Origin: Candidatus Omnitrophota bacterium
GTDB taxonomy: Bacteria; Omnitrophota; Gorgyraeia; Zapsychrales; Zapsychraceae
NCBI GenBank assembly: GCA_035292445.1
Contig: DATDQB010000010.1
Coordinates: forward strand, 3,563-67,562
Length of the DNA stretch: 64,000 bases
Reading direction: 5' to 3'
The notes under the pieces were generated by a model. The model was not told the DNA's origin, ran no database searches, and saw only the letters and a program-made list of their open reading frames with translations. The position numbers and the translations under genes were made by a program. Shown piece after piece: positions 2,690 to 64,000 of this stretch (its first letter is position 1; each line of letters begins with the position of its first letter).

Positions 2690-3719
2690 CGATCGGTAGT
2701 GACCTCGTTATATATTCGTGCGGGACCACATCAAAACCCGGATAAAAGCCATGAACGGCTCCGCGCACAATCCTTTTTTTGGAAAACGTTAAAAGTTCCT
2801 CGCTGTCTCTGATCTCTATGGGGATATCTTTGCCTGTTTTCACTTTATTTGACGGCTGCGTTAACACGTAGAACGGTATGTCAAATTCCTGGGCCAACAC
2901 GGCGATCTGGTACGTGCCGATCTTATTGGCGAAATCGCCGTTAGCGCAAGAGCGGTCGGAACCGACGATCACTTTATCGACCAACCCGTCCGCCATCAGT
3001 AACCCGATGGCGTTATCAGCGACCAATGTTACATTAGCGCCCATGCGGTTCAATTCCCACGCCGTCAGTTTGGCCCCCTGCAAGTAAGGTCGTGTTTCGG
3101 TCGCAAAGAAATGGATCTTCTTACCATCCTGCTTACAGATCCACGCGGCCATGGCCAGCTCACCGCTGACGTTACAATGCGTCAGGATACTGTCGCCGTT
3201 CTCGATCGTGGCAGCGATCTTTCGCACCCGCTCAAGCCGGCGCATGCGGATCCCCATTAAATAACCTTGAATATTCTTGGACACGAACTCTCGCAGATCA
3301 ATTCCCTCAGCCACCGCCTGCTTTGCCCATCCGACAACCATCCCCGTCACTTCGCTGAAAGGAAACGTCGGGCGGCTGTTATTTAACATATCGGCGGTTT
3401 TTTCTAACCGTTTCAATACCGCCGTAGGGGCGAGTCGCCGACTCGCCCCTACGTTATTTAATTCCAACAAAAACGCGTTTAAAACAACCAAAAACTGCCC
3501 GAACGCCCGAGTCTTCATGTCCTTAATGACCTTCACTGCTTCCTTCACCGAAGTGACAGGAATATAATGAAGCTTCTTGGGGATAAGCGTTTCATCAAGG
3601 ACATATAACGTATTCTTCTTTAGATACGCCGGCCAGAACAATGGCGATTCTTTGATTTCTTTGTGGTCAAGTTGTATGTTCTGCTTGATCATTTTATTTT
3701 CTAGCCAATTGCTCGGCAC
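2679..3719 (-). CDS. mtnA: S-methyl-5-thioribose-1-phosphate isomerase (eIF-2B family)
   Basis: TETRPYLQGAKLTAWEL, VIVGSDRSCANGDFANKIGTY, IPFYVL motifs of MtnA/eIF2B family; carries an in-frame palindromic element (VGASRRLAPT). Confidence 0.8.
   Translation of the reverse strand: MPSNWLENKMIKQNIQLDHKEIKESPLFWPAYLKKNTLYVLDETLIPKKLHYIPVTSVKEAVKVIKDMKTRAFGQFLVVLNAFLLELNNVGASRRLAPTAVLKRLEKTADMLNNSRPTFPFSEVTGMVVGWAKQAVAEGIDLREFVSKNIQGYLMGIRMRRLERVRKIAATIENGDSILTHCNVSGELAMAAWICKQDGKKIHFFATETRPYLQGAKLTAWELNRMGANVTLVADNAIGLLMADGLVDKVIVGSDRSCANGDFANKIGTYQIAVLAQEFDIPFYVLTQPSNKVKTGKDIPIEIRDSEELLTFSKKRIVRGAVHGFYPGFDVVPHEYITRSLPIDVR
3424..3452. repeat. GTAGGG-family 29-nt palindrome inserted in frame in mtnA
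   Basis: GTAGGGGCGAGTCGccGACTCGCCCCTAC; translated VGASRRLAPT. Confidence 0.8.
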
Positions 3720-50928: not shown

Positions 50929-50995
50929 GGGTTATCAGGGTATCTGGTTATCAGGAATAAGCCTGATATCCTGGTATCCTGATGTCCTGATAACC
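50929..50995. repeat. Cluster of GGTTATCAGG (x2) and inverted CCTGATNTCC/CCTGATAACC (x3) decamers spanning the stop codon of the giant gene
   Basis: gggttatcagggtatctggttatcaggaataagcctgatatcctggtatcctgatgtcctgataacc. Confidence 0.6.
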
Positions 50996-53900
50996 TTTTC
51001 TTGTCTAATCGCTTTTGATAATTCAAAACCGAGGCCGTTCCCTTCCGCCAGCGGTTGCGGTTCATCATCAGCTATGCCTAATAATAGAGGAAGGTTCGTG
51101 ACCGGCGTAATGGAATAAATGATCGGGGTAAACCCTGTGATCGGCATGGTCTCAAGAATGGCGGGATCGAACTGTAGATCCATCCCCTGCCCCTGCGTTT
51201 GCAGCTCCAGCATGTCGGGGTTCATATCAATACCGCCGACATCTTTACCCTCAGCCAGAATCTCCGATTCTGGCGAGACCTCGCCCGCCTCTGGCGGGCG
51301 GGCCACCATCGCCTCATCATCGACTTCCGTTCCCATGCCCAGATCCCATCCATACTCGTCAATCGTTAGGATTTTCACGATTCTTTCCAACAAATCTCTT
51401 GCTTGAGGTCCGTCAACCTTAATAACCACTTGATCCCCTCTTACAAGCCCTAATGATATTATATCTGTTACTTCACTGATAACTTCTGACTCACCGCCAA
51501 CACCTAAAACTAAGGAATTACCAGGGTATCTATGCATCAACTCAATTATTCTTTCAGCTGGTCTTATATGTACACCGGCTGCTATGGCAACCTCTACCGC
51601 TTCTTCTGCTGAATTATCTTCATTTAATTCATCAAAACCTCGCGCCCCCACCATCGCCCGGTCAGACCTGTTTTCCGAAGTGACCGCTCGCCTCTCGGCT
51701 CCGCCGAGAGAGGCCTCGCCCATTGGGCGGGCCCGGTCATTCCCTGCTCCTCTTTCAATAATTAACCCCTCTTCCTTTAATTCCTCAAACCAACCCAAGA
51801 TATCTTCCTGCGTTATAGACCGAATCGCCTCAACATACCTTGACCAATTTGTTTCTCTTCCTACATTTTCAATAACATACCTAAACGCTTTACCATGAAT
51901 ATAAGAAAGGGCTCCATACGAGATATCCTGATTGAACATCAGCAAAGCCAACTGTATATTTAAGTCAGCTGAAATTCTAGTCCCTATTAAATGTGCTCCT
52001 TCTTGCTGTTCATATGGCCTTAAGATTTCATCACTCAGATAGTTGGAGTGGCTAAGAAGAATTTCTTTGGCCGATACCCCTATTACCTGATCGATATCCT
52101 TCTGTATAGATTCCGGCGTTTCTCCCGAGACAATTAAAGCATGCTCCATGTCCTCTAATTTCTTTTTATTTTCGGTATTTCGAGAAATTCTTTCCTGTTC
52201 AAATAATTTTCCAAGATAATACAGCTCTGAAGGTGTCAATACGGTAATAACATTCTCCATGCTGATTCCTGATTGAGCAATGACTTGATCCGACCTACGG
52301 TTACCAAGAATGCGAACCAAATAAGACCGGACGACCCTGTTATTAAGACCGCGCGCTGTTAAAACCTCCTTAGCCAATTCAACGCGGTGATTAACGACCG
52401 CTAGACTCTGTGTGAACAGATTTATTGAAGAAGGACGACTCATAAAAACAAACCCTAAGCGATCGCTGATTTCTGGATTATGTGCGGTGGAATCTCGATA
52501 GGGAATCCCATGGCGTTCAAAGATCATATATTCGTAAAGATGCGAAAGTTCACTTCCTAAGAGAAATAAACCACCCGTTACTGTCGGCTCCGTTATATTG
52601 CCGCCGGCCCAAGGAGGCACACCCTCTTCATATGTTGCAAAACCTCCTCCTGACCAGGGCGAACCAAAATAGGGAAACCAGACATGTCTCTTGATCAAAC
52701 CATTAGGCAATTGTCTTAAGTATGAATTATCAAAGAATTGGAGATTCTTGGCATAAGATAACCCAAGTAAAAATTCTCCCAAATCATCTTTGTCTATGTC
52801 TTGCTGCACAAGGATAGCATTAATTCGATCCGCTTCCGCTTGAACGGATACAGAATATCGGCCTGCTTGGTGATAATCCAGGAGCGCGTAAATCAAAATA
52901 TCTTGATCAGTTAATCCATCAATAAATTCCTGGCTATAAGCCGGATAGGCCCCTAAACGATTTCGAAGACGTGGGACAAGTTCCCGCTGCAACCAGCTTT
53001 GGTACCCATCAAGGTTTTCCACTCCAACCAAACTCAAAAATAACTGCTCACTCTCAACAACCGAAAATAAATTATTCTTACTAATCTTCGACAAAATATA
53101 CACCGCTCCTTGAAAATGTTGCAAATACACAGACTGCCGTTGTCTATCCTCTATACGATCAATGGCTTCCATGCGCCTTATGAATTGTCGAATGGCCTCG
53201 ATTTTGGTTATATTGATCAAATCAAACACTTGGAACATCACATTATACTGCGGATACTGCATCATGAGGCCTAAGCCCTCTCTTAGGATTTGCTCATCCC
53301 CTGTCCAGCGATGCACAATGCCTGCCAATTGAAGGATAACATTGCGGTGACTGATGTCTGATCTATCCACTTTAACAGCATGATACATCGAATCAACGTC
53401 AAATCCCTCCAAAAGAATATCCTGTCTTTTTTTCGATAAACGTGCCATATAATAAAATATTTGGATTGCCTCAAAATCATACGATATATTCTCAATCAAG
53501 TTTTCTTCTGTAATATGTGGACCCATCATTTCTTGCCACAGCCTCAAACCACCAGGGACATTAACTATTGTGTTTCCTGAAAGCTCCAAATAAGGCAATG
53601 TGGGCACCAGCCATAAGCCTATCGAGGCAATATTTTCACTGCGAATCCATTGCGCTATATTAATATGTTCTAAAGCAAAAATTTGCTCTTGCAGGCTCAA
53701 ATTGTATAAAGCACCTCTGACATATTCATTAAATAGATTAAGTTCTTCATTACTGAATACTGCGGCTCCAATATTAAGCAAGATCCATTCTCGCACAGCA
53801 GGTTCGAAATCTTCTATTAACGGGATAAGGCTGGGATTTGCCGTTTGCGCCACTTCAATTTTCTCTCTCAAAAATTCTAACGTCTCCGTTGGTTTTCCGG

Positions 53901-56900
53901 CATGCTCTTGAGCCAATATAGAACCTGCTAAAATGGAACCGATTGCCAAACTTCTTTTAATGTTCCTTAATGAAGAATCCCCCACCATCGCCCGGTCATC
54001 AAAGGCATTGGGTACGCGGCCCCGGGGCTGCGGCATTTCCTCAAATCTTTCTTCTTCAAAAACCATCATTTCTTCCGGGACAGGAGGCTCGGGTTCCGCT
54101 GGAAGGCGGACAAGTTCATCATCCACGATCGCGATATCGGAAGGCCTGATATCACGGACAAGGATCCCCGCCGCGATTAATCTGTTCCTGATCTCATTAA
54201 TGGTCAGCTCTTCTTCCATTTTGAAGGTATCGATAGTGAATTCCTCCCCCGCTCTCATATATCGCCCGTCCTCGAATTCCGTCAATCGTCTGATAACATG
54301 GGTGTCCGGATCGTCAATGATAATGTCCTGGATCCCAATACCAAGAATTAACGCTATCTCGGAAGCAAACACTTCTTTGACAATCATCACCGCCACCATC
54401 GCATGATCAACTGACTGCCCCATATCTATTGCGTGTTGAAATACCACTAACTGGCCATTGTGCCCCTCTTCAATAACAAACCCCGCCTGCGTAAATTGCT
54501 TTTTAACAAACGCTGGCATACGATGGTCGACCTTCTTGCCATAATCTGTCTCTCGGTGGTAGAACGTCGCAGCCAAAATACCGCCGGGCTTCAATATATC
54601 CTTTAAGCCTTCGATGAAAAGCCCCGTTCTTTCTTGCGACCACACCCCGCCTTGATCGGTCAGGGCATAGTACAAGACAGAGGCCGCCACAATGACATCA
54701 AACTTCTTAGGGAGCGCAGACAGCTTCAGAATATCCATGCGTTCGGCTTTAACGCCGTATATGCGCCGCGCCAATCGAGCCCCGCGCCAGCTAAGATCAC
54801 CAGCCGTTATGGTAGCGCCTTTTTCTTTCAACCAAGGGATCATACGGCTGTCCCGGCCCGGTCCGATCTCCAAGGCATCAATTCCCTCCCAAACCCGATC
54901 CAAATTCGTGAGATATCCGGCGATATAATCCGATGTGCCGCTAAAGAAACCGTCCAAATAATTAAAATAGCTCTTAAAGAGGCCTGGCCCGTAGATCGAC
55001 GGCTCATACCCCTCAGGTGGGATTAAGGCAATGCTCTCCTCAATGACCCGCTGAAGATTGTGCGCTGTTATAACAAAACCCTCTTCCTTAAGCTCAAACA
55101 ACCTAAAGACCACCCAATCGAGAGTATAAAAATCATATTGGCCGATAATACGCTGCAGTTCCTCCAAGATCAACGCGGCGATCGGCTGATAACGCTCCAA
55201 GACCTCCCTTAACTCAGGCAGGACGCTGCTGTCAAAGTACATGACATCCGCCATCTCAAAATCCGGATGGGCATATTCGGTTTTGGTTAAAATAATCTCG
55301 CGAATCTCCTCAATAGCCGCCATCGCATTATCGGCCGCATAAGGGGATTCGAAACGCAGCTCCAAGGCGTCGTTATTCTTGCCGTGGATGGAAGACAAAA
55401 CGACATTGCGGACGAGCGAAGGCATGCGGTACGCGCCAAGCCGTTCATGCTGCGGCCCTTTGCCGTCAGGCCCTTCCTTTTGCAGCAATCCCTGCCGCGC
55501 CAGGAACTCTGCCGTTCCGGTGTGGTATCCCTCCCATTTGACAACCCCAAATCCCGGCCGGCGCGCCTCATCGATCAACATATGCCGCGCATTGGTAAGG
55601 CGTTTCGTCCCGCCTCGATTAAGCTGTTGCAACTTGGCCCAGACCGACACTACCTGCTCGCCCGGTTCTTGGGTCAGATTCTTCAAACTGACTAACATCA
55701 CCCGGTCCCGACGCTCACTTCGTTCAGTCGGGACTCCGACCGAGTCTGCCTCTGGCAGACGAGCGTCGGAGTCGGATTGGTCTGCCGCTTTTTGTGCGGC
55801 AAGGATCAATTCTCCCATCCGATATCCGACGATCTTCAATAAAACGCCGGACCTGACCTTGTGTACAACGATATCGTGGATATCTTCATTGTCCGCACCG
55901 AACAATTTCAAAATTTCGGCATAGTACGGCGACTTTAGATATTCATCATCATGCGTTGAAATCTCTTGTTTTAATAGCCTTTGTGCCAGCTTTAAAACTT
56001 CCATATCGGTCACGGCTTCAACCGCGCGCTGCTGGTTGTATTCCGAGACGAATTGGCGGGCCAATAATTGAGCTGACTCTCCTAAATTTCTTTGGAAAAT
56101 ATAATAGGGCATGGGAATTTCGGCGCCAGGACGCGCTTCCATCCGCCTTATAATATTACCTTCGATCTTTTTATAAAAAGGATCTGTACGTTCTGTGCCA
56201 AGCTTAGCCGGAATGACCTTGAGTGATGACTCCCAATAAGCATCGATATAGCCTTTCATTACGGCATTGGCATCATGGCGATGCAACAACCATAAGATGA
56301 CCGCTGTCCATTGGAAATATGGGTCCACCGCCACTTTTGAAAAATAAATGCTTCTGATCGGCTTTACCGGTATGTATGCTTTTCCTTTTTGAATCTTAGG
56401 ATGGCTAAGGGCCACAGCAACCGGCTTTCCTAATTCGTTAAGTACGGCAAAGCTAAGCTGGGGATCAAAACGGTTCGGGTCATCGGCCAATTCAATAACA
56501 TCCTGCTGCAGACTAAATGTTTGATCCGCCGCGATCAAGTTCAATAACCGTAAGAATTCCGGCGCCTCTTGTAAAAGAAGCTCTCTGGTCAATGGAACAA
56601 GCTTGAGACGCTCTCCCTTAACGACCAGCTCATCATGCCGCTCTAACCATTCTGCGGCCGGCATGCCATCGATTTGCTCACCCGCGAAAACCTTGGAATG
56701 CCCCGGCGCTACGTCGTAACCATCCCCCACCATCGCGGCGTCTCCGGCAAGGGCCTCTTGGAACTCAGGCATCCCTTCCTCATTGAGGCGCCATTTGGTC
56801 GTCGCCGCTTTTCGCTCTTGCCCTTCCAGGCCGCGGTAACCGACCAAAGAAATACTTTGAGGCCTTTTTTGCCCTTCATAATGCGCCATGATCTCCAGGC

Positions 56901-59900
56901 GTGACAGCTCGGCCATCCTTGTCCCCATGCGCATGTTCATCATTTTTCCCAGCCTTTTGCCTTTGGGAAGAGGGAAATTACGGTTCAAGATGCCGTGCTG
57001 CAAACCTGTTTTGCCGACAAAATCACTGATATCAACGGCCACGCCGTCAAACTTGCTTGATGAATAGACCTTTCGAATTAAATTTTCGATATCTTTTTTT
57101 CTGAGCTGGACCTGGTTGACCTGGTACACAGGCCGCGTTCCGTCCCAAAGCCAGTGACTTTCCCGGTATTTTTCTTCGCGCCCTTCGACCATTTTGTAAC
57201 CGATAAACGCCATGGCCTTAACACTGCCATCCGTATTGTAATGGACCACCCATTCGACTTTGGAAAGACCGGCGCCGATCTTCATGCTTTCTATATGGTC
57301 CGCCCCCCACAGTTCACCATTGGGCAATGGAAAGGCAACGCGGATCTGCCCGGTCCGCAAATTCGATTCGCCCAAATATTTTGTGAGATCGATCTTTCTC
57401 CACGGCACATCCAGCGTTTCTTGATACAATTCCCTGACCTCATCCCCGTTTCCAGGTTTATACCTGTATTCATAAGCTTCGCCTGTCCATTCCCAATAGC
57501 TGCGCTCCATTTCATAATCTTTCTCATAGATCCTTTTGAAACCTATAAAAGTAATCCCCTTCACGTTCCCATCGGACAAAAAGTCGACCTTAAGCAAAAC
57601 TTTCGACAAATTCTTTCCGATCCTCATGAATTCTTGAAAGTCCCACGTCTTTCCGTTCGGCAACGGAAAGGTCCAGCCGATCTGGCCAGCCTTCAATTTT
57701 CCCGGCCCCAAATATTCCGTGATATCGACCGTGATCGACTTCTGTCCTTTTGAATTCCTATAAAACATCTTGATCAGCTCATCAGGGTCCTGAAATTCAA
57801 AATGCGTTCCGTTCCACAACGCATAACTCTTTCTGGTGATTGTCTGTTTTGACCTGTTCTTAGAAAGCCCGATAAAGCTCACAGCCTTAAGCTGGCCATC
57901 CGTAAAATGCGGCACCATTTTAACCTGTATCAATTTACCCCCCAGATGAATGCTACGCCTTTTGCCGCCCCACGAGGCGCCGTTGGGCAAAGGGAACATG
58001 TCCCTTACGATCCCGTATATCAAGTGATTCCGGCTAAAATGCTCCGTGATATCGAGTTCCATTCCGTCAAACCGCGCGTCCGTAAGATGCGCCTTGATCT
58101 TCTCATTAAGCTCCCTCATGAAATCGACGTATTCCAATTCCTCCCCGTCCCAGCGCCATAAGCTTCGGTTGTATTCTTCATGCTTTGAAGAACCGTTTTT
58201 CTTATAACCGATGAACATGACGCCCTGGATGTTTACCCGGTCAGGATCCCAAATCACTTTCATCTCCACACGCGATAGGTCTTTACCAAGCCTTAACTGA
58301 AGGAGCTCCCCCACGCGTTTGCCGCCGGGCAATAGGAACGCCGCCCTTAAAGACCCTCTTTTAAGGTTAAAGGGCGTCAATAAACGGGAAATATCAACGA
58401 CGACATCATGAAACTCGGGGTCTTGATAAATATGCTGGAGTTCATTGATATTATTCAGGGTCTTTACGAACCGCCCGTTCATCTGTTTGCGCTCGACTGA
58501 TATGATTTTACCGTTATTTTTTAGAATAACATGGCGGTCATAACTGTTGCCGTTGTTGACAAAAACGTTGGCGTTGACGGTCCACGTCGCATGATACAAA
58601 TGATCAAAGACCGTATCCCCTATCTGATAGAAACTGTCTTTGTTCACCATCATCGCCCGGTCAACGTTTTGCCCCTTGTCCATGACGGACGCGAAAGAAG
58701 AATCAAGCATCCCCAGATCACCTATGTAGAAAATGTTAGAATGCCCTTTTTCATTAAACGGATGCGGCACGTGGACAAACTCCAAATTGTTTTGTCTGAT
58801 GAATTCCTCCGCCCGCGTTTCTTTTTCCCTTAAACGATAATCCGCCAACCCGCTTTCTTCGGAAAGCAACACCCGCCAAATCGCCAATGAAGGATGCCGC
58901 TGTAGCCGACGCTTAAGTTCCCCAAAAAGTTCAAAAAACTTATCCGCTTTCATGTAATAGGAATGGTTCGCGAAGGATTCGTGCCCCAAAGGATTTCTTT
59001 CTACCCGATCGATAAACTCTTCCTCACTCACAACGCGAGGCGCATTGAACAAGTAAATATCCGCGTCCGGCTGCCGGGTGAAACCGTCCTGATAAAAAAT
59101 CTTTACGCTTGCGGCCGCGCTCGGCGGAATCTGTCCCGTTTCCAGAGCAAATTGAAAATTCCAGTTGGCTAACATCACATGCATCGGATTAATGTCCGTT
59201 GCCCAAACACTTTTTGCGCCGGACTTAAGGACATTAAGAAGATCAATTCCTGTCCCGACACCGATAATTCCTATGTCTTTCCCTTCAAAAATGCCCGGAT
59301 TATCCAGAACGGCCGTCTGAAAATCAACACTATGTTTATCAATCGTCTCAAACACGTCAAAATTGTCGATAGAAAACATGGTGAATATTCCGCTGGTTCC
59401 CCATATCTTTCTTAGTCGCTCCTGAATCGGTAAAACTACTTTATTTGTTGTACGTTTTAACCGTATCGTCTGCGCATATGGTTTGGGCGCCGGCGTTTCC
59501 GGGTAAAGGAACGGGATGGCGAGCTGTGCCAGCATACGGGCATTCAATGACAACGATTCTTCCGCAGAAACAATAGCTTCGGAGATATCAAATAGCAGAG
59601 GTTCGCCCGTCTTCCTTTGAAACATAATGCCGTAAGAAATAACTTTATGCTCTCCAAATAACGGAGTATTCCCTTCTAACGACAGAAGATACCCTTCAGG
59701 CGCCACATCCTCACCGTAAAGCAATGCTGAGAAAAAACGGACTCCATCCTCGGTGAAAGTAAGCGGTTCATACCACATCCTGGCGCCTTCGATCAATTCA
59801 GGAACGTCCAGAAAAATTTTATCCTTGTCTTTGTCCAAAAAAGAAAGAGAATCAATGATCTGGCGGCCCACCATCGCTTGATCCCTTACCCCAGCCCCCT

Positions 59901-62900
59901 CTTCATCGGTTATCGTTATAATCTTGATGGCCTCTTTGACCGATTTTCGTATGCTGGGGCCTTTTCTTTGGAGGCTGAGTGCGCTTAGATAAGGATATCC
60001 TGAGGCCGGCACCGATAGATTATCTGAGGTCGAGGCGATAATAACGGGCATCGACAACGACAACGCTTTTAACCCCTCGGCGATGGCAAGGGCGGAGCTC
60101 TCTTTGCCTACAACGACGTCAAAGGAGAACGGGTCCTCCGCGATCGTCTCCAGGGCCCGCTGTTCATTTTCGGCGTGAACGACGTTAAACTCTTCATTCA
60201 TGATATCCATCAGACGCCCCCGGCTTTGCGTCGCATCATCGACGATCAAGACCGTCCGGATCCTTGAAGTTACCCGGCGTTTTAACCCGCTTTCGATCCT
60301 GACGGTCAATTTCCGGTTTTCGATTGTCGCCGTAATGCCATCCTGGGCACGCAGCATCCGGGCCATCTCCGATACAACCGGCGAAAGCGGCTGTTCTTGC
60401 TGCCATAGCTCATCAAGCCTTTGGGGCATATCGCCACCCAGCAACTGCGCCCAATGGAACAAACTTGTCAAATAACCGTGCCCTATTTGCGCCTTCCCCG
60501 ATTCAAATTGTTCCAGGGGAACAGTAGCCAGCTGTCCGAGCAGCTCCAGCATATCGGTATCATCGATGTCTCTGATGAGCTTTCCTATCATGGCCCGGTC
60601 TTCCTGCCCGCCTTCTCCGATCAATTTTCTTTGATGATCAATAATCTGCCGTTTTACCCGCTCGTCAATGGCTGAAACGGCCTCGGCCCCCCGCGGGAAG
60701 CCGTATTCGTCATAATGGGCGGCAATCAGCACCAACTTTAAATCTTCCATCTCTTTCGAGGAAAAACCGGTATTATTAAGTAGATATAAGCTCAACCATT
60801 GTTTGATCTCTTCGCCGTAGTACCATTGGGAGGCCTCTCGGCCGAAATCTCCGGAGATCTTCTGCCACTGCCTGGGCGTCAACCGGCTTAAATTCTTAGA
60901 AAACAGAATAACGGGAAGCGGCATTTCGGCGCCGGGGCCGTACACATTTTCCAAAGCCACTTCAGACCCATCAACCGGTTCACGCCGGCTGTTAAGGAGT
61001 TTATCAAGGTTCAGCTCCAGCCTGCGCTTTAAGACCTGCTCAACCGATTCCGGGTGTTCACGCAAGTATCGAAGGTTGACCGTATCCCCCTTGCTATCAG
61101 CAAGAATTATATTGCCCGCCAGAAGATCGTTGATGATCTCAAGCAAAACCCTCAACCCCATGGCCGGATGGGCCAACCGTCTTTCGTATTCAAGCAAAGC
61201 GTAACCGATAATATTGTATTTGCTCTTGTAGCCGTCCTCGGCCGTTCCCAGCACGTTCCAGTTGAGATCAAGCGACGCCAGCGCGTTGAAAACTTCCACC
61301 AACACGGACACAAAAAGTTCGCTCCGCGAGAGCGGGGAATCCCCGTTAATGAACTGGGCCTTAAATTGCTGGCCGTACTCTTTGCCCAGGCCGATCTGTG
61401 GATCTTGGCTCAGAGCGTATCCCGCATGCAATTTATCAATATCAAAGATCGACTCGTCATCCTGGTTATAGACCTCGATGGTCGCGATCTTGTTCTTGAC
61501 GGAAATGAACCGGGTGATGTCAAAAGGAGGCATGAAGAATTCTGTCTTCTTTCCCGAACGAACCCAAAGACGTTCCCGGACCTCGTTCATGAGCTCGTCA
61601 TAATCAAAACTGCCCGTTTGCCTTTTGACTTCCCCAAATGCCTGGTCAAAACTCGATGCAACGGTTTCCGACCAATGCGCGATCGGTTCTGTCCAATCAA
61701 GGCTCATATCGAACGTTGAACGGTTGACGACCCTAAAGTGTGTTTCCCCCGTCTTTGAGGCCGCGATCATCACGGACATAAAAACTTCTTGCGGGGCGAT
61801 TTTGTAAAGACTTACATCATTTCTGTCTCTGCCGAAATAATAGAGGGTGTCGGACTTAAGCTGCCAGCCCTTTGACATCTGGCTCCCATCACCGTTGAAG
61901 CGCCGGAAAATGATCTGGCCGTCTTCGATAAAAAGCTTAAAATGATATTCCCCGAACTGGATGGTGATCACATTGACGAATTTTGAACTCATGCTGTTAT
62001 CGGGAGCAACGTTTTCTGACCTGTCACTAAGCATGGCGTTGTCTTCGCCCATCGCGCCCTTTGGTTCGGGGCCGAAATAATCGCGGGCGATCTCCAGCCG
62101 CCGGATCACTTCGTCCATTTCGGGACGGTCTTCCATCTTTTCTGCCGTCATGCCTTCAATAAGCGCCTTTAAGCCGCTGTTCTCCCAATCGGCTGTCGAG
62201 ATCCTTTCCGTCTGGTCACTGAACACGGTACGTATCGTTTTGCCGAGCCCGTAAACATCGGAGCGTGGCACTTTAACTTTTTCGGGGGCTACATAATCAT
62301 CTGCGCCCCAATCCGTTTCCTGGCCGATAACGGTAGCGATGCCGTAATCGATGAGAAATATCTCTCCGTCATCATCAAACAATATATGCTCCGGTTTAAC
62401 GTCGTTATGGACGAGACCGGAGCGCTCGTGCAGTTGTTTCAGTATCTCCGCGGCCTTGAGAATAACTTCTATTTGATGTTGGGGCCACAACCTCCTGAAA
62501 ATACTCGATTCAATCGTCAAAGCATGGGCCGGTCCTCTCGTCTTGATGAAGATCCACCCTTTTTCATTGACCTGGATGGACAATAATCGCGGCACGCCTT
62601 CGATACCGGCCTTTCCTATGATGTCCAGCGCCTGCGCTTCGTTGAGCGTGCGGTCATTGAAGCCGGTCTTATAAAAAATATCCGGCGGGTCATTGAGCTG
62701 TTGCAAGACCTCTCCAGCGCCGCCCGCACCGACATCTCTTTTTTCATCATAATTAAAAGAATACGCCTCCAAATAACCTTTTAATCGGGGATCGGCGCTG
62801 ATAAGCGCAATTGATCCCTGGTAAGTAGGGACGACCATCGCCTGATCGGGCAGGCCTTCGCCTTCAGGCTTTAAACCGACCGAGGCGATGAGGGCGTGGT

Positions 62901-63972
62901 CAAGATTATCCCTGACCTGCAAGGCATGGCGGGGATCATTGGAAACCACCATTGCCGCATCTAAGGCTATCCCCATCTGGGCGCCGCCGGAGAAATATTT
63001 GCGCGGGATGATCTCTTGGGTCGCCGGGTCATAGTCTTCTTTGATGTAATTGTAAACGCCGGTCTTGAAAGCCTCGAGGTACTGCTCATAGATCTTTTGT
63101 TTAATCTGCTTGTCCTCAACGTCAACGCCCTCAGTCTTATTTTGATCAACGTAGATCTTATTTAAAAGATGGTTATAAAGTGTCCGCTTGAACCAAGTCG
63201 CTAAGATCATGGAATGATAAATCTGCCGCAAATTAGCGAAGTTCTCACCTTCATTCACTTCCTTCTCGATCTCGGGAAGGATGATTTCACGGATGATTTC
63301 AGAACCAAGGTTATTTGTTTCTGCGGAAATCCCTCGCTGGTCATCGTTGGTTGGCAGATCAGCTCGGGACGTTGCGCTGTTTAAATTTTGTTGCAGCGCA
63401 ACGTAATCCTCTTCCAACATGACCTTCAAATACGCCTCAACGACAAAGGCCGTATCGCCGTTCTCGTACACAATCGCTTTTTCCGGTACGATCCACACTT
63501 TATTAAAGGTGTTGACCGGGATATCCGTTATGCCGAAACGTTCGTAAGCCAGCTTGTGCACTTTCTTCCAGAACTTCTCCCCCAATTCTTTCTCGGGATA
63601 AATGAGGCTCGCGGTCAGTTGTTTCAGAATATAATCTTGCGCGAGTAAGTCGCGGCCCATTTCGGTGACACCAAAACTTTCCGGGATGATGCGGTCTTTT
63701 TCATAGGGCGAAAGGTTCACCCACATTTCTTCTTTGGGCACTGTCAAGCTGGCAAGAAAATATTTAACCAACCTATCAGCTTCCTGGCGCAAGGCCTCAT
63801 CCTGCAGCTGGTTGTCGGCAAGATCAATAATGAAATCAAAATGAAGTGGATTCTGGGGATCGATCTTGATGCCTTTAAGAAGAGGCGGGACAAATCCGGG
63901 TGTGGGCGCCAGCATGATCCCGGGCGCGGGCAATGGGATCATCGGCTGGGCAAAGCTTATCCGCGGCGGCAT
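50935..63972 (-). CDS. Giant modular protein (at least 4345 aa, ORF open to the window edge at 64000): conserved N-cap, Hanks-type Ser/Thr kinase-like module, unknown modules, REC-like module, SAM-methyltransferase 1, 5x ~100-aa tandem repeat module, unknown modules, SAM-methyltransferase 2, small module, large ~750-aa module, HPr-like module, conserved C-cap
   Basis: Continuous 13 kb ORF; kinase HNDVKPEHIL...DYG...VAPE; MTase IGIIGVGTGIDLL and ALEIGPGRDS...LKPGGIL; REC-like RTVLIVDDATQ; HPr-like GVHIRPAERIIELM...GLVRGDQVVIKVDG; about 13 D-x-A-M-[VMIL] junction motifs; caps shared with the 11218..15318 protein. Confidence 0.8.
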   Translation of the reverse strand: MPPRISFAQPMIPLPAPGIMLAPTPGFVPPLLKGIKIDPQNPLHFDFIIDLADNQLQDEALRQEADRLVKYFLASLTVPKEEMWVNLSPYEKDRIIPESFGVTEMGRDLLAQDYILKQLTASLIYPEKELGEKFWKKVHKLAYERFGITDIPVNTFNKVWIVPEKAIVYENGDTAFVVEAYLKVMLEEDYVALQQNLNSATSRADLPTNDDQRGISAETNNLGSEIIREIILPEIEKEVNEGENFANLRQIYHSMILATWFKRTLYNHLLNKIYVDQNKTEGVDVEDKQIKQKIYEQYLEAFKTGVYNYIKEDYDPATQEIIPRKYFSGGAQMGIALDAAMVVSNDPRHALQVRDNLDHALIASVGLKPEGEGLPDQAMVVPTYQGSIALISADPRLKGYLEAYSFNYDEKRDVGAGGAGEVLQQLNDPPDIFYKTGFNDRTLNEAQALDIIGKAGIEGVPRLLSIQVNEKGWIFIKTRGPAHALTIESSIFRRLWPQHQIEVILKAAEILKQLHERSGLVHNDVKPEHILFDDDGEIFLIDYGIATVIGQETDWGADDYVAPEKVKVPRSDVYGLGKTIRTVFSDQTERISTADWENSGLKALIEGMTAEKMEDRPEMDEVIRRLEIARDYFGPEPKGAMGEDNAMLSDRSENVAPDNSMSSKFVNVITIQFGEYHFKLFIEDGQIIFRRFNGDGSQMSKGWQLKSDTLYYFGRDRNDVSLYKIAPQEVFMSVMIAASKTGETHFRVVNRSTFDMSLDWTEPIAHWSETVASSFDQAFGEVKRQTGSFDYDELMNEVRERLWVRSGKKTEFFMPPFDITRFISVKNKIATIEVYNQDDESIFDIDKLHAGYALSQDPQIGLGKEYGQQFKAQFINGDSPLSRSELFVSVLVEVFNALASLDLNWNVLGTAEDGYKSKYNIIGYALLEYERRLAHPAMGLRVLLEIINDLLAGNIILADSKGDTVNLRYLREHPESVEQVLKRRLELNLDKLLNSRREPVDGSEVALENVYGPGAEMPLPVILFSKNLSRLTPRQWQKISGDFGREASQWYYGEEIKQWLSLYLLNNTGFSSKEMEDLKLVLIAAHYDEYGFPRGAEAVSAIDERVKRQIIDHQRKLIGEGGQEDRAMIGKLIRDIDDTDMLELLGQLATVPLEQFESGKAQIGHGYLTSLFHWAQLLGGDMPQRLDELWQQEQPLSPVVSEMARMLRAQDGITATIENRKLTVRIESGLKRRVTSRIRTVLIVDDATQSRGRLMDIMNEEFNVVHAENEQRALETIAEDPFSFDVVVGKESSALAIAEGLKALSLSMPVIIASTSDNLSVPASGYPYLSALSLQRKGPSIRKSVKEAIKIITITDEEGAGVRDQAMVGRQIIDSLSFLDKDKDKIFLDVPELIEGARMWYEPLTFTEDGVRFFSALLYGEDVAPEGYLLSLEGNTPLFGEHKVISYGIMFQRKTGEPLLFDISEAIVSAEESLSLNARMLAQLAIPFLYPETPAPKPYAQTIRLKRTTNKVVLPIQERLRKIWGTSGIFTMFSIDNFDVFETIDKHSVDFQTAVLDNPGIFEGKDIGIIGVGTGIDLLNVLKSGAKSVWATDINPMHVMLANWNFQFALETGQIPPSAAASVKIFYQDGFTRQPDADIYLFNAPRVVSEEEFIDRVERNPLGHESFANHSYYMKADKFFELFGELKRRLQRHPSLAIWRVLLSEESGLADYRLREKETRAEEFIRQNNLEFVHVPHPFNEKGHSNIFYIGDLGMLDSSFASVMDKGQNVDRAMMVNKDSFYQIGDTVFDHLYHATWTVNANVFVNNGNSYDRHVILKNNGKIISVERKQMNGRFVKTLNNINELQHIYQDPEFHDVVVDISRLLTPFNLKRGSLRAAFLLPGGKRVGELLQLRLGKDLSRVEMKVIWDPDRVNIQGVMFIGYKKNGSSKHEEYNRSLWRWDGEELEYVDFMRELNEKIKAHLTDARFDGMELDITEHFSRNHLIYGIVRDMFPLPNGASWGGKRRSIHLGGKLIQVKMVPHFTDGQLKAVSFIGLSKNRSKQTITRKSYALWNGTHFEFQDPDELIKMFYRNSKGQKSITVDITEYLGPGKLKAGQIGWTFPLPNGKTWDFQEFMRIGKNLSKVLLKVDFLSDGNVKGITFIGFKRIYEKDYEMERSYWEWTGEAYEYRYKPGNGDEVRELYQETLDVPWRKIDLTKYLGESNLRTGQIRVAFPLPNGELWGADHIESMKIGAGLSKVEWVVHYNTDGSVKAMAFIGYKMVEGREEKYRESHWLWDGTRPVYQVNQVQLRKKDIENLIRKVYSSSKFDGVAVDISDFVGKTGLQHGILNRNFPLPKGKRLGKMMNMRMGTRMAELSRLEIMAHYEGQKRPQSISLVGYRGLEGQERKAATTKWRLNEEGMPEFQEALAGDAAMVGDGYDVAPGHSKVFAGEQIDGMPAAEWLERHDELVVKGERLKLVPLTRELLLQEAPEFLRLLNLIAADQTFSLQQDVIELADDPNRFDPQLSFAVLNELGKPVAVALSHPKIQKGKAYIPVKPIRSIYFSKVAVDPYFQWTAVILWLLHRHDANAVMKGYIDAYWESSLKVIPAKLGTERTDPFYKKIEGNIIRRMEARPGAEIPMPYYIFQRNLGESAQLLARQFVSEYNQQRAVEAVTDMEVLKLAQRLLKQEISTHDDEYLKSPYYAEILKLFGADNEDIHDIVVHKVRSGVLLKIVGYRMGELILAAQKAADQSDSDARLPEADSVGVPTERSERRDRVMLVSLKNLTQEPGEQVVSVWAKLQQLNRGGTKRLTNARHMLIDEARRPGFGVVKWEGYHTGTAEFLARQGLLQKEGPDGKGPQHERLGAYRMPSLVRNVVLSSIHGKNNDALELRFESPYAADNAMAAIEEIREIILTKTEYAHPDFEMADVMYFDSSVLPELREVLERYQPIAALILEELQRIIGQYDFYTLDWVVFRLFELKEEGFVITAHNLQRVIEESIALIPPEGYEPSIYGPGLFKSYFNYLDGFFSGTSDYIAGYLTNLDRVWEGIDALEIGPGRDSRMIPWLKEKGATITAGDLSWRGARLARRIYGVKAERMDILKLSALPKKFDVIVAASVLYYALTDQGGVWSQERTGLFIEGLKDILKPGGILAATFYHRETDYGKKVDHRMPAFVKKQFTQAGFVIEEGHNGQLVVFQHAIDMGQSVDHAMVAVMIVKEVFASEIALILGIGIQDIIIDDPDTHVIRRLTEFEDGRYMRAGEEFTIDTFKMEEELTINEIRNRLIAAGILVRDIRPSDIAIVDDELVRLPAEPEPPVPEEMMVFEEERFEEMPQPRGRVPNAFDDRAMVGDSSLRNIKRSLAIGSILAGSILAQEHAGKPTETLEFLREKIEVAQTANPSLIPLIEDFEPAVREWILLNIGAAVFSNEELNLFNEYVRGALYNLSLQEQIFALEHINIAQWIRSENIASIGLWLVPTLPYLELSGNTIVNVPGGLRLWQEMMGPHITEENLIENISYDFEAIQIFYYMARLSKKRQDILLEGFDVDSMYHAVKVDRSDISHRNVILQLAGIVHRWTGDEQILREGLGLMMQYPQYNVMFQVFDLINITKIEAIRQFIRRMEAIDRIEDRQRQSVYLQHFQGAVYILSKISKNNLFSVVESEQLFLSLVGVENLDGYQSWLQRELVPRLRNRLGAYPAYSQEFIDGLTDQDILIYALLDYHQAGRYSVSVQAEADRINAILVQQDIDKDDLGEFLLGLSYAKNLQFFDNSYLRQLPNGLIKRHVWFPYFGSPWSGGGFATYEEGVPPWAGGNITEPTVTGGLFLLGSELSHLYEYMIFERHGIPYRDSTAHNPEISDRLGFVFMSRPSSINLFTQSLAVVNHRVELAKEVLTARGLNNRVVRSYLVRILGNRRSDQVIAQSGISMENVITVLTPSELYYLGKLFEQERISRNTENKKKLEDMEHALIVSGETPESIQKDIDQVIGVSAKEILLSHSNYLSDEILRPYEQQEGAHLIGTRISADLNIQLALLMFNQDISYGALSYIHGKAFRYVIENVGRETNWSRYVEAIRSITQEDILGWFEELKEEGLIIERGAGNDRARPMGEASLGGAERRAVTSENRSDRAMVGARGFDELNEDNSAEEAVEVAIAAGVHIRPAERIIELMHRYPGNSLVLGVGGESEVISEVTDIISLGLVRGDQVVIKVDGPQARDLLERIVKILTIDEYGWDLGMGTEVDDEAMVARPPEAGEVSPESEILAEGKDVGGIDMNPDMLELQTQGQGMDLQFDPAILETMPITGFTPIIYSITPVTNLPLLLGIADDEPQPLAEGNGLGFELSKAIRQEKVIRTSGYQDIRLIPDNQIP
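56790..58410 (-). repeat. Five tandem ~100-aa protein repeats (FPLPNG-containing) inside the giant gene
   Basis: Repeats begin VDISRLLTPFNLKRG / LDITEHFSRNHLIYG / VDITEYLGPGKLKAG / IDLTKYLGESNLRTG / VDISDFVGKTGLQHG, each with FPLPNG/FPLPKG and a W.W(D/T)G end. Confidence 0.7.
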
Positions 63973-64000
63973 TAAACCCGTTATACTGAAAGTTATAACG

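What the first reader, a model, noticed from the sequence alone, without database searches (positions are those of the whole stretch)
50935..63972. Paralogous giant proteins built as domain cassettes between conserved caps, with a recurring D-x-A-M-[VMIL]-[GVA] junction at every module boundary
The 4345-aa and 1366-aa proteins share about 330 aa at the N-terminus (PPLMKGIKI...RKYFSGGA) and about 90 aa at the C-terminus (GGID[LM]NPDML...IIP VTNLPLLLGI...). Between these caps they carry completely different modules: a kinase, two methyltransferases, a REC-like domain, an HPr-like domain and a 5x repeat in one; PP2C and GHKL in the other. Every module boundary carries the same short peptide: DRAMVGA, DRAMMGA, DQAMVG, DRAMIG, DHAMVA, DAAMVG, DEAMVA, DNAMLS, DAAMVV and DEAMLVV. 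Many copies are encoded by the identical DNA core GGCGATGGTGG, so conservation is at the nucleotide level, not only the peptide level. Plus-strand coordinates of the cores in the giant gene: 51311-51334, 51643-51663, 51717-51738 (variant DRARPMG), 53979-53997, 54391-54408, 55311-55341, 55691-55713, 56722-56745, 58645-58662, 59866-59884, 60584-60600, 62020-62056, 62819-62850, 62947-62962. In the 1366-aa gene: 11511-11529, 12075-12095, 12939-12952, 14063-14100, 14222-14259. This looks like a cassette-shuffling or recombination system that generates multi-enzyme giant proteins, or else a polyprotein processed at conserved sites. I do not recognise it as a described architecture.
Basis: partly seen in the sequence, partly recalled or inferred. 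Interest (0 to 1): 0.9.

Follow-up and report, generated by a model that had tools for sequence, protein, structure and literature searches.

The report
Capped multi-enzyme carrier proteins of Omnitrophota
Two very large genes in this Omnitrophota genome belong to a big, apparently undescribed family of exported proteins in which a conserved head and tail enclose strings of unrelated enzymes separated by a short junction peptide that differs between genomes, which makes it look like a bacterial polyprotein or multi-effector carrier.

Summary
The 4345-aa and 1366-aa proteins share only an N-terminal cap (62% identity) and a C-terminal cap (44%). D-x-A-M occurs 12 and 5 times (0.47 and 0.20 expected) and once in the other 43 ORFs. 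Every Pfam-detected domain lies between two neighbouring motifs.

The genes are two members of a very large family found almost only in Omnitrophota. The N-cap has at least 591 loci in species-representative genomes. The C-cap has 3532 clusters at 50% identity and always sits at the extreme C-terminus.

The architecture is Sec-type signal peptide, N-cap of about 320 aa (no PDB, Pfam or NCBIfam match), variable cargo of cytoplasmic-type enzymes, then C-cap of about 70-90 aa. Cargo-less members exist.

The junction peptide is specific to the family; in non-family proteins it is at chance level. It comes in genome-specific forms: DxAM, SSP[VIL], NPAM and DxAV.

Selection acts on the peptide, not the DNA. 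Recombination cores and internal translation starts are therefore not supported.

My best reading, which is inferred and not shown, is an exported polyprotein or multi-effector carrier. Its junctions would be read by a trans-acting factor that co-evolves with them, most likely a protease. I found no published description.

The parts
50935..64000 (-). Giant family member (at least 4345 aa). The ORF is still open at the window end, so the true start lies upstream of base 64000.
63946..64000 (-). 3' part of the Sec-type signal peptide of the giant protein (..VITFSITGLMPPRISFAQ|P), cut off by the window end.
   Evidence: aligned to the small protein's ..PSLVWAQ|A
62968..63897 (-). N-cap of the giant protein (aa 26-335, ..PPLLKGIKI...RKYFSGG).
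62950..62961 (-). Junction DAAM (aa 338), directly after the N-cap.
62836..62847 (-). Junction DQAM (aa 376).
62215..62472 (-). Protein kinase domain (aa 501-586).
62032..62043 (-). Junction DNAM (aa 644).
60589..60600 (-). Junction DRAM (aa 1125).
60019..60252 (-). Weak receiver (REC)-like domain (aa 1241-1318; E=0.004, below Pfam's cut-off).
59872..59883 (-). Junction DQAM (aa 1364).
59008..59265 (-). Weak methyltransferase-like region (aa 1570-1655).
58651..58662 (-). Junction DRAM (aa 1771).
56773..58428 (-). Five divergent repeats of about 115 aa (..VDI..FPLP.G..FIGY..W.W.G..), all inside one inter-junction module.
56731..56742 (-). Junction DAAM (aa 2411).
55691..55713 (-). Variant junction DRVMLV (aa about 2754).
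55321..55332 (-). Junction DNAM (aa 2881).
54571..54873 (-). SAM-dependent methyltransferase domain (aa 3034-3134).
54397..54408 (-). Junction DHAM (aa 3189).
53986..53997 (-). Junction DRAM (aa 3326).
51717..51738 (-). Variant DRARPMG (aa about 4079).
51652..51663 (-). Junction DRAM (aa 4104).
51367..51606 (-). HPr-like domain (aa 4123-4202).
51307..51318 (-). Junction DEAM (aa 4219), the last one before the C-cap.
50935..51237 (-). C-cap of the giant protein (VGGIDMNPDML...GFTPIIYSITPVTNLPLLLG plus an acidic tail with ELSKA) and the stop codon.
11218..15318 (-). Second family member (1366 aa). It is 100% identical, over the part used as query (its residues 341-1366), to NCBI 'protein phosphatase 2C domain-containing protein [Candidatus Omnitrophota bacterium]'. 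NCBI annotates that protein from Met60.
15211..15318 (-). Sec-type signal peptide (K/R n-region, hydrophobic core aa 9-37, ..SLVWA|QA).
14251..15210 (-). N-cap of the small protein (aa 37-356).
14239..14250 (-). Junction DEAM (aa 357); it lies in a segment with pLDDT below 50 in the AlphaFold model.
14083..14094 (-). Junction DNAM (aa 409); it lies in a segment with pLDDT below 50.
12934..12945 (-). Junction DRAM (aa 792).
12220..12882 (-). PP2C phosphatase domain (aa 813-1033).
12082..12093 (-). Junction DTAM (aa 1076).
11554..11886 (-). GHKL ATPase domain (HATPase_c, aa 1145-1255).
11518..11529 (-). Junction DRAM (aa 1264), the last one before the C-cap.
11218..11493 (-). C-cap of the small protein (VGGIDLNPDML...GFAPIIYQIIPVTNLPLLLG plus an acidic tail) and the stop codon.

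Best explanation
Both genes are paralogous members of a very large protein family found almost only in Omnitrophota. I describe them as capped carrier proteins.

Shown:
- Each member has an N-terminal Sec-type signal peptide, a conserved N-cap of about 320 aa, a variable string of unrelated cytoplasmic-type enzyme or signalling domains, and a conserved C-cap of about 70-90 aa at the extreme C-terminus.
- A 4-5 residue junction peptide (here D-x-A-M-[VMIL]-[GA]) sits at the cap/cargo borders and between modules, in segments that look like linkers.
- The junction peptide is under peptide-level selection, is confined to this family, and exists in genome-specific forms.

Inferred:
- The precursor is exported by Sec.
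- The caps form the constant carrier part (anchoring, further secretion or translocation), because cargo-less members made of caps only exist.
- The junction peptide is the recognition site of a trans-acting factor encoded elsewhere in each genome. The most likely factor is an endoprotease cutting after the hydrophobic residue (D-x-A-M| or S-S-P-V|). Cleavage would release the modules with near-native N-termini.
- The modules would then act as separate enzymes on the cell surface or in prey or host cells. This fits the predatory or parasitic lifestyle proposed for Omnitrophota.
For: Family and caps:
- The N-cap search gave 1378 hits with E-values down to 1e-132. Nearly all named ones are Omnitrophota, and none has a Pfam domain in the cap.
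- At least 591 loci occur in species-representative genomes, with many paralogs per genome. One MAG (JAJDCA) has 12 family ORFs in 7 loci.
- The C-cap profile hits 3532 representatives, always in the last residues of proteins up to 5312 aa.
- 56 ORFs in the loci have both caps. The cap-only-at-one-end cases I inspected (the 13 C-cap-only ORFs) are truncated at a contig or locus end or are fragments.
- P0098 is a cargo-less member: signal peptide, N-cap and C-cap in 438 aa.

Export:
- 94 of 96 N-complete members have a hydrophobic core upstream of the N-cap. 93 have K/R before it and 84 have a small-x-small site after it (consensus A|Q).
- Neither window protein has any other convincing transmembrane segment. 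The giant protein has two further hydrophobic stretches (aa 1294-1313 and 3191-3219), but the stronger one contains K, E and D, so I read it as buried core rather than membrane helix.

Junction motif:
- 12 and 5 copies are observed in the window against 0.47 and 0.20 expected.
- D.AM is the most enriched gapped tripeptide in 77 cargos (105 observed, 11.3 expected; D.AML is 31-fold enriched).
- An independent sample chosen by C-cap gives 138 observed against 14.9 expected.
- Non-family ORFs of the same loci give 21 observed against 20.1 expected.
- A junction follows the N-cap within 30 aa in 42 of 144 proteins and precedes the C-cap within 35 aa in 87 of 205. Chance expectation is about 0.6% for a 30-aa stretch.
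- All five solid Pfam domains in the window lie between adjacent motifs.
- The first two motifs of the small protein fall in segments with pLDDT below 50.

Genome-specific forms:
- SSP[VILM] occurs at 0.27 per 1000 aa in the family against 0.02 outside it.
- Counts per genome (DxAM / SSPx) are JAJDCA 20/0, JBFMEN 26/3, CAYIQK 1/11, CAZIRV 0/5 and L039 27/1. NPAM and DxAV forms occur elsewhere.
- The window genome prefers Val at +1 (9 of 17, against 10 of 122 family-wide; P=3e-5) and Gly at +2, in both paralogs.

Native-like module starts: SSPI-KKILVVDD before receiver domains, ASSPV-SFAKLTIDD before phosphoglycerate kinase, and DAAM between phosphoglycerate kinase and enolase.

Cargo is cytoplasmic-type: kinase, PP2C, HPr, GHKL, methyltransferases, receiver domains, HEAT, PGK, Glu/Leu dehydrogenase, helicases, NUDIX and others.

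The predatory or parasitic lifestyle of Omnitrophota is taken from PMC10066038 and PMC13153191.
Against: - No cleavage has been observed.
- No protease domain was found in either protein.
- No conserved neighbouring gene, protease or other, was found in 80 loci.
- Some large members have no recognisable junction motif.
- Housekeeping-type cargo such as PGK, enolase and Glu/Leu dehydrogenase is odd for effectors, and ATP- or SAM-dependent enzymes have no obvious substrate supply outside a cytoplasm.
- The signal peptide is predicted only heuristically.
- The C-cap fold could not be predicted with confidence (pLDDT 58-70 on a shallow alignment).
- Junction forms shared within one genome could also arise by gene conversion among paralogs or by duplication of linkers. 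The L022 and L075 linkers are visibly duplicated.
Confidence: 0.4

Rival explanations
1. The protein is an uncleaved beads-on-a-string scaffold. The N-cap and C-cap form a constant anchoring or polymerising unit, as the conserved termini of flagellin enclose a hypervariable insert. The cargo stays attached and is displayed on the envelope or coat. The junction peptide would be a hinge or a docking site for a partner protein, not a cleavage site.
For: - Cargo-less caps-only members exist.
- The two caps always co-occur.
- No protease domain or protease neighbour was found.
- Some members lack junction motifs.
- Surface display of glycolytic enzymes as adhesins is known in other bacteria (own knowledge).
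Against: - A passive hinge does not explain strict conservation of 4-5 residues amid unconserved flanks, nor the genome-specific forms.
- AlphaFold of the cargo-less member gave no confident C-cap and no evidence that it packs on the N-cap.
- The N-cap has no fold match to any filament or S-layer protein.
Confidence: 0.25
2. The proteins are cytoplasmic or membrane-tethered multi-enzyme fusions that house housekeeping enzymes, such as PGK and enolase, as one polypeptide. The N-terminal hydrophobic segment would be an uncleaved anchor, or the cargo would not be exported at all.
For: - The cargo is made entirely of cytoplasmic-type enzymes, including a full-length PGK (E=1e-107) followed by enolase.
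- Giant multi-enzyme proteins are reported for Omnitrophota (10.64898/2026.06.07.730766).
Against: - An n-region with K/R followed by a single hydrophobic core places everything downstream outside the cytoplasm.
- 84 of 96 members have a signal-peptidase-like site.
- The window proteins have no further convincing transmembrane segments that could bring the cargo back inside.
Confidence: 0.1
3. This is the first reader's DNA-level model: the junctions are recombination cores (GGCGATGGTGG) at which cassettes are shuffled between paralogs.
For: - There is a mild codon bias at the junction in this genome: GCG in 11 of 17 Ala codons (P=0.012) and GTG in 8 of 9 Val codons (P=1.4e-4).
- Short motifs such as VENN mark swap points in polymorphic toxins (own knowledge).
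Against: - The exact 11-mer is present only 3 times. The Asp codon is split 9/8 and the x codon varies.
- Family-wide, Asp and Ala codon usage equals background.
- 12 conserved bases are too few for homologous recombination (own knowledge).
- No cargo module of the giant protein recurs in any other member of the 80 loci.
- The two window paralogs share nothing but the caps.
- The codon bias also fits selection for accurate codons at constrained residues (inference).
Confidence: 0.07
4. The junction Met is an internal translation start, so modules are made separately from one mRNA.
For: Met is invariant in this genome's form of the motif, and ATG-GTG is frequent.
Against: - The Shine-Dalgarno-like score upstream of junction ATGs (3.29) equals that of other internal ATGs (3.30). 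The test has low power, because true gene starts score only 3.42.
- Other forms of the junction use Val, Ile or Leu encoded mostly by non-start codons (GTT 10, GTC 6, GTG 6, ATT 5 and others).
- The conserved Asp at -3 and Ala at -1 are explained by a peptide reader, not by initiation.
- Modules made in the cytoplasm would not need the signal peptide or the caps.
Confidence: 0.03

Closest known systems
MARTX toxins of Vibrio and relatives (multifunctional autoprocessing RTX toxins; from own knowledge, not tested by homology)
   Same: Very large secreted proteins in which conserved N- and C-terminal regions enclose a variable set of unrelated effector domains. The effector set differs between paralogs or strains. 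Processing between effectors at short linker sites releases them.
   Different: - No RTX or glycine-rich repeats and no Peptidase_C80 cysteine protease domain.
- A Sec-type signal peptide instead of type I secretion.
- Caps with no sequence or fold relationship to anything known.
- The junction is a defined D-x-A-M or S-S-P-V peptide with genome-specific forms.
- The cargo includes housekeeping-type enzymes.
- There are many paralogs per genome and thousands across one phylum.
Type IX secretion cargo and gingipain-type polyproteins of Bacteroidota (C-terminal domain described in PMC11285876; polyprotein processing from own knowledge)
   Same: An N-terminal Sec signal, a multi-domain precursor and a conserved domain of about 80 aa at the extreme C-terminus that acts as a secretion or anchoring signal. 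The precursor is cut at recurring sites into domains.
   Different: - The C-cap gives no hit to any Pfam or NCBIfam model, which includes the type IX C-terminal domain models.
- Its fold is unresolved.
- Omnitrophota belong to the PVC group and are not known to have a type IX system (own knowledge).
- There is an additional conserved 320-aa N-cap.
- The cargo is cytoplasmic-type enzymes rather than proteases and adhesins.
Polymorphic toxin systems (CdiA, Rhs, MafB; from own knowledge)
   Same: A short conserved peptide marks the border between constant and variable parts. Paralogs carry different payloads.
   Different: - Here the variable part is internal and made of several modules, and the C-terminus is conserved.
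- No conserved downstream immunity gene or any other conserved neighbour was found.
- No toxin domains were detected.
Giant Omnitrophota proteins ('Archaeovorins' and 'Dockerin-type', bioRxiv 10.1101/2023.11.21.568195; very long proteins in 10.64898/2026.06.07.730766)
   Same: The same phylum, very long ORFs that string together many enzyme-type domains, and a published suggestion of post-translational cleavage into several products.
   Different: - Those proteins are 30,000 aa or longer, with many transmembrane helices, C39/S8 peptidase, SecA-like or dockerin domains.
- In the term searches of these papers and the one section I read, I met no mention of the N-cap, the C-cap or a junction motif.
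- The window proteins have no such domains and no convincing internal transmembrane helices.
Flagellin with a hypervariable or enzymatic central insert (own knowledge)
   Same: Conserved N- and C-termini enclose a freely variable central region. Insert-less forms exist.
   Different: No sequence or fold similarity. Export is Sec-dependent. The inserts are multi-domain and are separated by a conserved junction peptide.

Membership tests
MARTX toxin | Glycine-rich RTX-type repeat regions at both ends | tested here: not met
   No RTX (HemolysinCabind) or other repeat family was found in either protein by Pfam or NCBIfam. The C-cap has a single GGID.N element only.
MARTX toxin | Internal autoprocessing cysteine protease domain (Peptidase_C80) | tested here: not met
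   No peptidase family was hit in whole proteins or in single modules.
MARTX toxin | Type I secretion with no N-terminal Sec signal | tested here: not met
   A Sec-type signal peptide is seen in the small protein and, by a heuristic, in 94 of 96 N-complete family members.
MARTX toxin | Variable effector cassettes between conserved arms | tested here: met
   The paralogs share only the caps. The cargo differs among 48 members. This is an analogy only, not homology.
MARTX toxin | Proteolytic release of effectors at inter-domain linkers | not testable with these tools
   This needs proteomics or biochemistry.
Type IX secretion cargo (gingipain-like polyprotein) | Conserved C-terminal domain of about 80 aa with an Ig-like beta-sandwich fold, recognised by the type IX C-terminal domain models | tested here: inconclusive
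   Position and size fit. No Pfam or NCBIfam hit. AlphaFold gives only a beta-hairpin plus helix at pLDDT 58-70 on a shallow alignment.
Type IX secretion cargo (gingipain-like polyprotein) | Type IX machinery (PorU, PorV, SprA and others) in the genome | not tested
   Only 64 kb of the genome is held. The ten flanking genes I scanned are metabolic or regulatory, and one has no Pfam hit.
Polymorphic toxins (CdiA/Rhs type) | A variable C-terminal toxin after a demarcating motif, followed by a cognate immunity gene | tested here: not met
   The C-terminus is the conserved C-cap. No recurrent neighbouring gene was found in 80 loci.
Self-processing polyprotein (viral type) | A protease domain encoded within the precursor | tested here: inconclusive
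   No known peptidase family is detectable. The N-cap has an unknown fold with invariant Ser, Lys, Glu and Asp residues, and about 60% of the giant protein is unannotated.
Self-processing polyprotein (viral type) | A recurring short site at the borders of independently folding domains | tested here: met
   17 D-x-A-M sites are present. All five solid Pfam domains lie between adjacent sites. The site is enriched at cap/cargo borders.
Omnitrophota giant proteins (Archaeovorin or Dockerin-type, West-Roberts et al. 2023) | At least 30,000 aa, many transmembrane helices, C39/S8 peptidase, SecA-like or dockerin domains | tested here: not met
   The window proteins are 4345 aa or more and 1366 aa. 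They have no convincing internal transmembrane segment and none of these domains.
New family proposed here (capped carrier proteins of Omnitrophota) | Sec signal, N-cap (..WVNLSPYE..RKYFSGG), and C-cap (GGI[DN].xP...GF.PVI..I.P..LP.LLG) at the extreme C-terminus | tested here: met
   Both window proteins have all three elements. The giant protein's signal peptide is cut by the window end.

The most novel reading that the evidence does not exclude
Omnitrophota run a phylum-wide polyprotein system. Dozens of exported precursors per genome each string unrelated enzymes, including glycolytic ones, between a carrier head and tail. A dedicated protease cuts them at a junction code that co-evolves with it and differs between genomes (DxAM, SSPV, NPAM, DxAV). 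Whole enzyme sets would thereby be delivered to the cell surface or into prey. This would be a new secretion and processing logic for bacteria.
Probability: 0.3. Interest if true: 0.9.

Novelty: new variant of a known kind. Interest (0 to 1): 0.8.

Why it matters
Polyproteins cut at a defined code are a hallmark of viruses and are rare in bacteria. A family with thousands of members and many paralogs per genome would be a major, unannotated part of Omnitrophota biology. This phylum is uncultured and consists of ultra-small cells thought to live as predators or parasites.

If the family works as proposed:
- The junction peptide gives a sequence handle for splitting these long ORFs into real functional units. 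West-Roberts et al. explicitly said that the absence of known cleavage points blocked their analysis.
- It makes the question 'are giant Omnitrophota proteins processed?' directly testable by searching existing metaproteomes for peptides that start after D-x-A-M or S-S-P-V.
- The two caps are new domain families that deserve Pfam or NCBIfam models. Current annotation calls these proteins 'hypothetical', or names them after one cargo domain, and can drop the signal peptide by choosing a late start codon.

Tried and rejected
1. A word-index homology search with the C-cap found only one hit. The full HMM search was needed.
2. A homology search with the small protein's cargo returned only itself and two weak relatives, so there was no alignment for modelling the modules.
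The substitute was the cargo-less member P0098, where only three sequences covered the C-cap. It gave a low-confidence C-cap. A first alignment for it was misaligned and was discarded.
5. PHROGs and PADLOC scans of the caps and the unknown modules gave nothing usable.
6. Neighbour-gene clustering in 80 loci found no conserved partner.
7. A look-up of the encoding contig for P0122 found nothing on record.
8. BLAST self-comparison failed to show the 5x repeat. A regular-expression anchor search did show it.
9. Kizina et al. 2022 (PMC9004380) is not held.

Readings considered and rejected:
- Chance or a generic linker: the motif is at chance level outside the family.
- An assembly artefact: over the part used as query (residues 341-1366), the small protein matches an NCBI protein at 100% identity, and the family is widespread.
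- A eukaryote-style 2A 'skipping' peptide, suggested by GGIDLNP in the C-cap: this is only a superficial resemblance.

Full report
OBSERVATION

The window carries 45 long ORFs, all on the minus strand. The two genes in question are 50935-63972 (4345 aa) and 11218-15318 (1366 aa).

BLASTP between them finds two shared regions and nothing else. The N-terminal region is 62% identical over 430 columns. The C-terminal region is 44% identical over 131 columns. tblastn with either cap finds no third copy in the window.

D-x-A-M occurs 12 and 5 times. Composition predicts 0.47 and 0.20 (Poisson P about 2e-13 and 2e-6). It occurs once in the 14,079 aa of the other 43 ORFs, where 1.3 are expected. Two of them are variants: DRARPMG and DRVMLV.

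Pfam confirms a kinase, a methyltransferase and HPr in the big protein, and PP2C and a GHKL ATPase in the small one. The receiver-like domain and the second methyltransferase are only weak hits. The five repeats are real. Each solid Pfam domain lies wholly between two neighbouring junctions.

Two corrections are needed. First, the big ORF has no in-frame stop up to base 64000. The upstream codons read ..VITFSITGL before MPPRISFAQ|P, so its start and most of its signal peptide lie outside the window. Second, the exact DNA core GGCGATGGTGG occurs three times, not many.

WHAT THE GENES ARE

The small protein matches, at 100% identity over the part used as query (residues 341-1366), an NCBI entry named 'protein phosphatase 2C domain-containing protein [Candidatus Omnitrophota bacterium]'. 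That entry is annotated from Met60, which removes the signal peptide.

A search with the N-cap returned 1378 proteins with E-values down to 1e-132. Almost all named ones are Omnitrophota, and none has a Pfam domain in the cap. A scan of one genome per species found at least 591 loci, with several per genome.

From the 80 loci fetched I extracted the ORFs. Members range from about 400 aa to more than 3700 aa. Complete ones end in the same C-terminal element: GGI[DN][LF]xP..L.LQ.KRDG.G.PLP....I.GF.PVIINI.PV.NLPLLLG, followed by a variable acidic tail. 56 ORFs have both caps. The 13 ORFs with only a C-cap are cut by a contig or locus end or are fragments.

A profile of the C-cap, searched against 1.84 billion representatives, hits 3532 proteins (925 at E of 1e-10 or better). 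The match is always in the last residues, in proteins up to 5312 aa.

One member, P0098 (438 aa), is signal peptide plus N-cap plus C-cap with no cargo.

By a simple heuristic, 94 of 96 N-complete members have a hydrophobic core upstream of the N-cap. 93 have K/R before it and 84 have a small-x-small site after it. The family consensus shows A|Q. Apart from the signal peptide, the window proteins have no convincing transmembrane segment. The giant protein has two further hydrophobic stretches, the stronger of which carries K, E and D.

THE JUNCTION PEPTIDE

D.AM is the most enriched gapped tripeptide in the cargo of 77 family proteins (105 observed, 11.3 expected). D.AML is enriched 31-fold. 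The flanks are not conserved. Position +1 is L/I/V/T and +2 is T/A/S/V/G.

In an independent sample chosen through the C-cap (68 proteins of 700 aa or more), the count is 138 against 14.9 expected. In 214,281 aa of non-family ORFs from the same loci it is 21 against 20.1 expected. The motif is therefore a property of the family, not of the proteome.

A junction follows the N-cap within 30 aa in 42 of 144 proteins and precedes the C-cap within 35 aa in 87 of 205. Chance would give about 0.6% for a 30-aa stretch.

A second junction peptide, SSP[VILM], is 13 times more frequent in the family than outside it. It sits where a stand-alone domain would have its first residue: SSPI-KKILVVDD before receiver domains, and ASSPV-SFAKLTIDD before phosphoglycerate kinase, which also ends at ASSPI. 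In another member, DAAM separates phosphoglycerate kinase from enolase.

The forms are genome-specific. Counts of DxAM / SSPx are:
- JAJDCA: 20/0 in 12 ORFs
- JBFMEN: 26/3
- CAYIQK: 1/11
- CAZIRV: 0/5
- L039: 27/1

Other genomes use NPAM or DxAV(L), and a few show no clear motif.

The window genome has its own flavour, shared by both paralogs. Val is at +1 in 9 of 17 sites, against 10 of 122 elsewhere (P=3e-5). Gly is at +2 in 7 of 17, against 12 of 122. Yet the two N-caps are only 73% identical, about as far apart as caps of different genomes.

DNA LEVEL OR PEPTIDE LEVEL

In the window the Asp codon is GAT 9 times and GAC 8 times, and the x codon varies. GCG (11 of 17; P=0.012) and GTG for Val (8 of 9; P=1.4e-4) are over-used. 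Across the family, Asp and Ala codons match background. At +1 there is a preference for GTG, ATC and CTG. I read this as selection for accurate codons at constrained residues; that is inference.

There is no stretch long enough or constant enough to serve as a recombination substrate. No cargo module of the giant protein recurs in any other member of the 80 loci.

Internal initiation is also unlikely. The Shine-Dalgarno-like score before junction ATGs (3.29) equals that before other internal ATGs (3.30). The test is weak, because true starts score only 3.42. The SSP form uses mostly non-start codons.

THE CAPS

AlphaFold with a 97-sequence alignment gives an alpha/beta N-cap with a confident core (116 residues at pLDDT of 90 or more; mean 72). 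Everything after ..KYFSGG, including the first two junctions, has pLDDT below 50.

The C-cap could only be modelled in the cargo-less member, with three sequences covering it. The result was a hairpin plus helix at pLDDT 58-70. Its fold, and any contact with the N-cap, remain open.

CARGO AND CONTEXT

Pfam on 48 cargos finds receiver domains, several methyltransferase families, HEAT repeats, CofD, phosphoribosyltransferase, phosphoglycerate kinase (1e-107), Glu/Leu dehydrogenase, RmlD, SNF2 and DEAD helicases, GHKL ATPase, PPDK_N, NUDIX and glycosyltransferases. These are enzymes that normally work in a cytoplasm.

Neighbouring genes are not conserved. In the window the neighbours are ordinary metabolic and regulatory genes.

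HOW IT MOST LIKELY WORKS

Shown: the architecture, its restriction to one phylum, peptide-level selection on the junction, its confinement to the family, and its genome-specific forms.

Inferred:
1. Sec export and signal-peptide removal.
2. The caps are the constant carrier part, since caps-only proteins exist.
3. The junction is read by a trans-acting factor encoded elsewhere that co-evolves with it.

A protease cutting after the hydrophobic residue is the simplest such reader. It explains the native-like module starts and the sites at both cap/cargo borders. It also explains why enzymes that need ATP or SAM are exported: they would act as separate proteins in a target cell. That fits the predatory or parasitic lifestyle proposed for the phylum (PMC10066038; PMC13153191).

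I put this at 0.4. The main rival (0.25) is an uncleaved display scaffold in which the junction is a docking or hinge element. A cytoplasmic metabolon (0.1), DNA-level cassette recombination (0.07) and internal initiation (0.03) are less likely for the reasons given above.

COMPARISON WITH KNOWN SYSTEMS

The logic resembles MARTX toxins: conserved arms, swappable effectors and linker cleavage (own knowledge). It also resembles type IX cargo polyproteins such as gingipains: Sec signal, multi-domain precursor and a C-terminal domain of about 80 aa (PMC11285876).

None of the defining parts of either system is present. There are no RTX repeats, no C80 protease and no type I secretion, and no Pfam or NCBIfam model (which include the type IX C-terminal domain models) hits the C-cap.

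The giant Omnitrophota proteins described so far are a different class: 30,000 aa or more, many transmembrane helices, and C39/S8, SecA-like or dockerin domains. In my term searches of those papers I met no mention of caps or a junction motif. West-Roberts et al. state that missing information on cleavage points blocked their analysis.

Five full-text searches and the papers I opened gave no description of this family (searches; papers read). Absence from this library is not proof of absence.

VERDICT

The finding is genuine and statistically overwhelming. It belongs to a large family that, as far as I could find, is undescribed. I rate it as a new variant of a known kind, namely modular secreted multi-domain carriers or polyproteins. 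It is built from new domains and has a new, genome-specific junction code. The function is inferred, not shown.

Noticed in passing
window 63946-64000 and 15141-15318: The giant ORF is open to the window end, so its true start and signal peptide lie outside the window. The public (NCBI) annotation of the small protein starts at Met60 and so drops the predicted signal peptide.
   Followed up: partly
P0126 (protein): A 3396-aa protein carries about 20 internal partial copies of the C-cap profile (positions 17-53). It is a repeat protein built from part of the C-cap.
   Followed up: no
L056:4187-12637 and L004:931-4197: Family members carry full-length glycolytic enzymes as cargo. One has phosphoglycerate kinase, then DAAM, then enolase. 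Another has phosphoglycerate kinase bracketed by ASSPV and ASSPI.
   Followed up: partly
P0098: A cargo-less family member exists: signal peptide, N-cap and C-cap in 438 aa, seen on 5 contigs.
   Followed up: partly
window 1-64000: All 45 non-overlapping long ORFs lie on the minus strand, and GC skew is negative across the whole 64 kb.
   Followed up: no
window junction codons, e.g. 51652-51663, 53986-53997, 12082-12093: Val at +1 of the junction is GTG in 8 of 9 cases (background 26%). Family-wide, Ile at +1 is ATC in 12 of 15 (background 32%). This may be accuracy-driven codon choice at constrained sites.
   Followed up: partly
window 62848-62949 and 14095-14238: A short segment of about 35-50 aa between the first and second junction is itself conserved between the two paralogs (..P..A..V..N..HA.IAS..). 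It forms a mini-module that belongs to the N-terminal constant part.
   Followed up: no
loci L001, L003, L004, L008, L009 and others; proteins P0035, P0105: Many contigs carrying this Omnitrophota-type cap are titled 'uncultured Planctomycetales', and single proteins are labelled Heimdallarchaeota or Pacearchaeota. These are probably mislabelled or mis-binned records.
   Followed up: no
window 54316-54402 (giant protein aa 3191-3219): A strongly hydrophobic stretch (AMVAVMIVKEVFASEIALILGIGIQDIII) lies directly after the DHAM junction. It contains K, E and D, so it is probably buried core rather than a membrane helix.
   Followed up: no
L043, L070, L071, L059 (loci): Family genes often lie in tandem, with two or three in a row on the same strand. 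In the window the two members are 35 kb apart.
   Followed up: no
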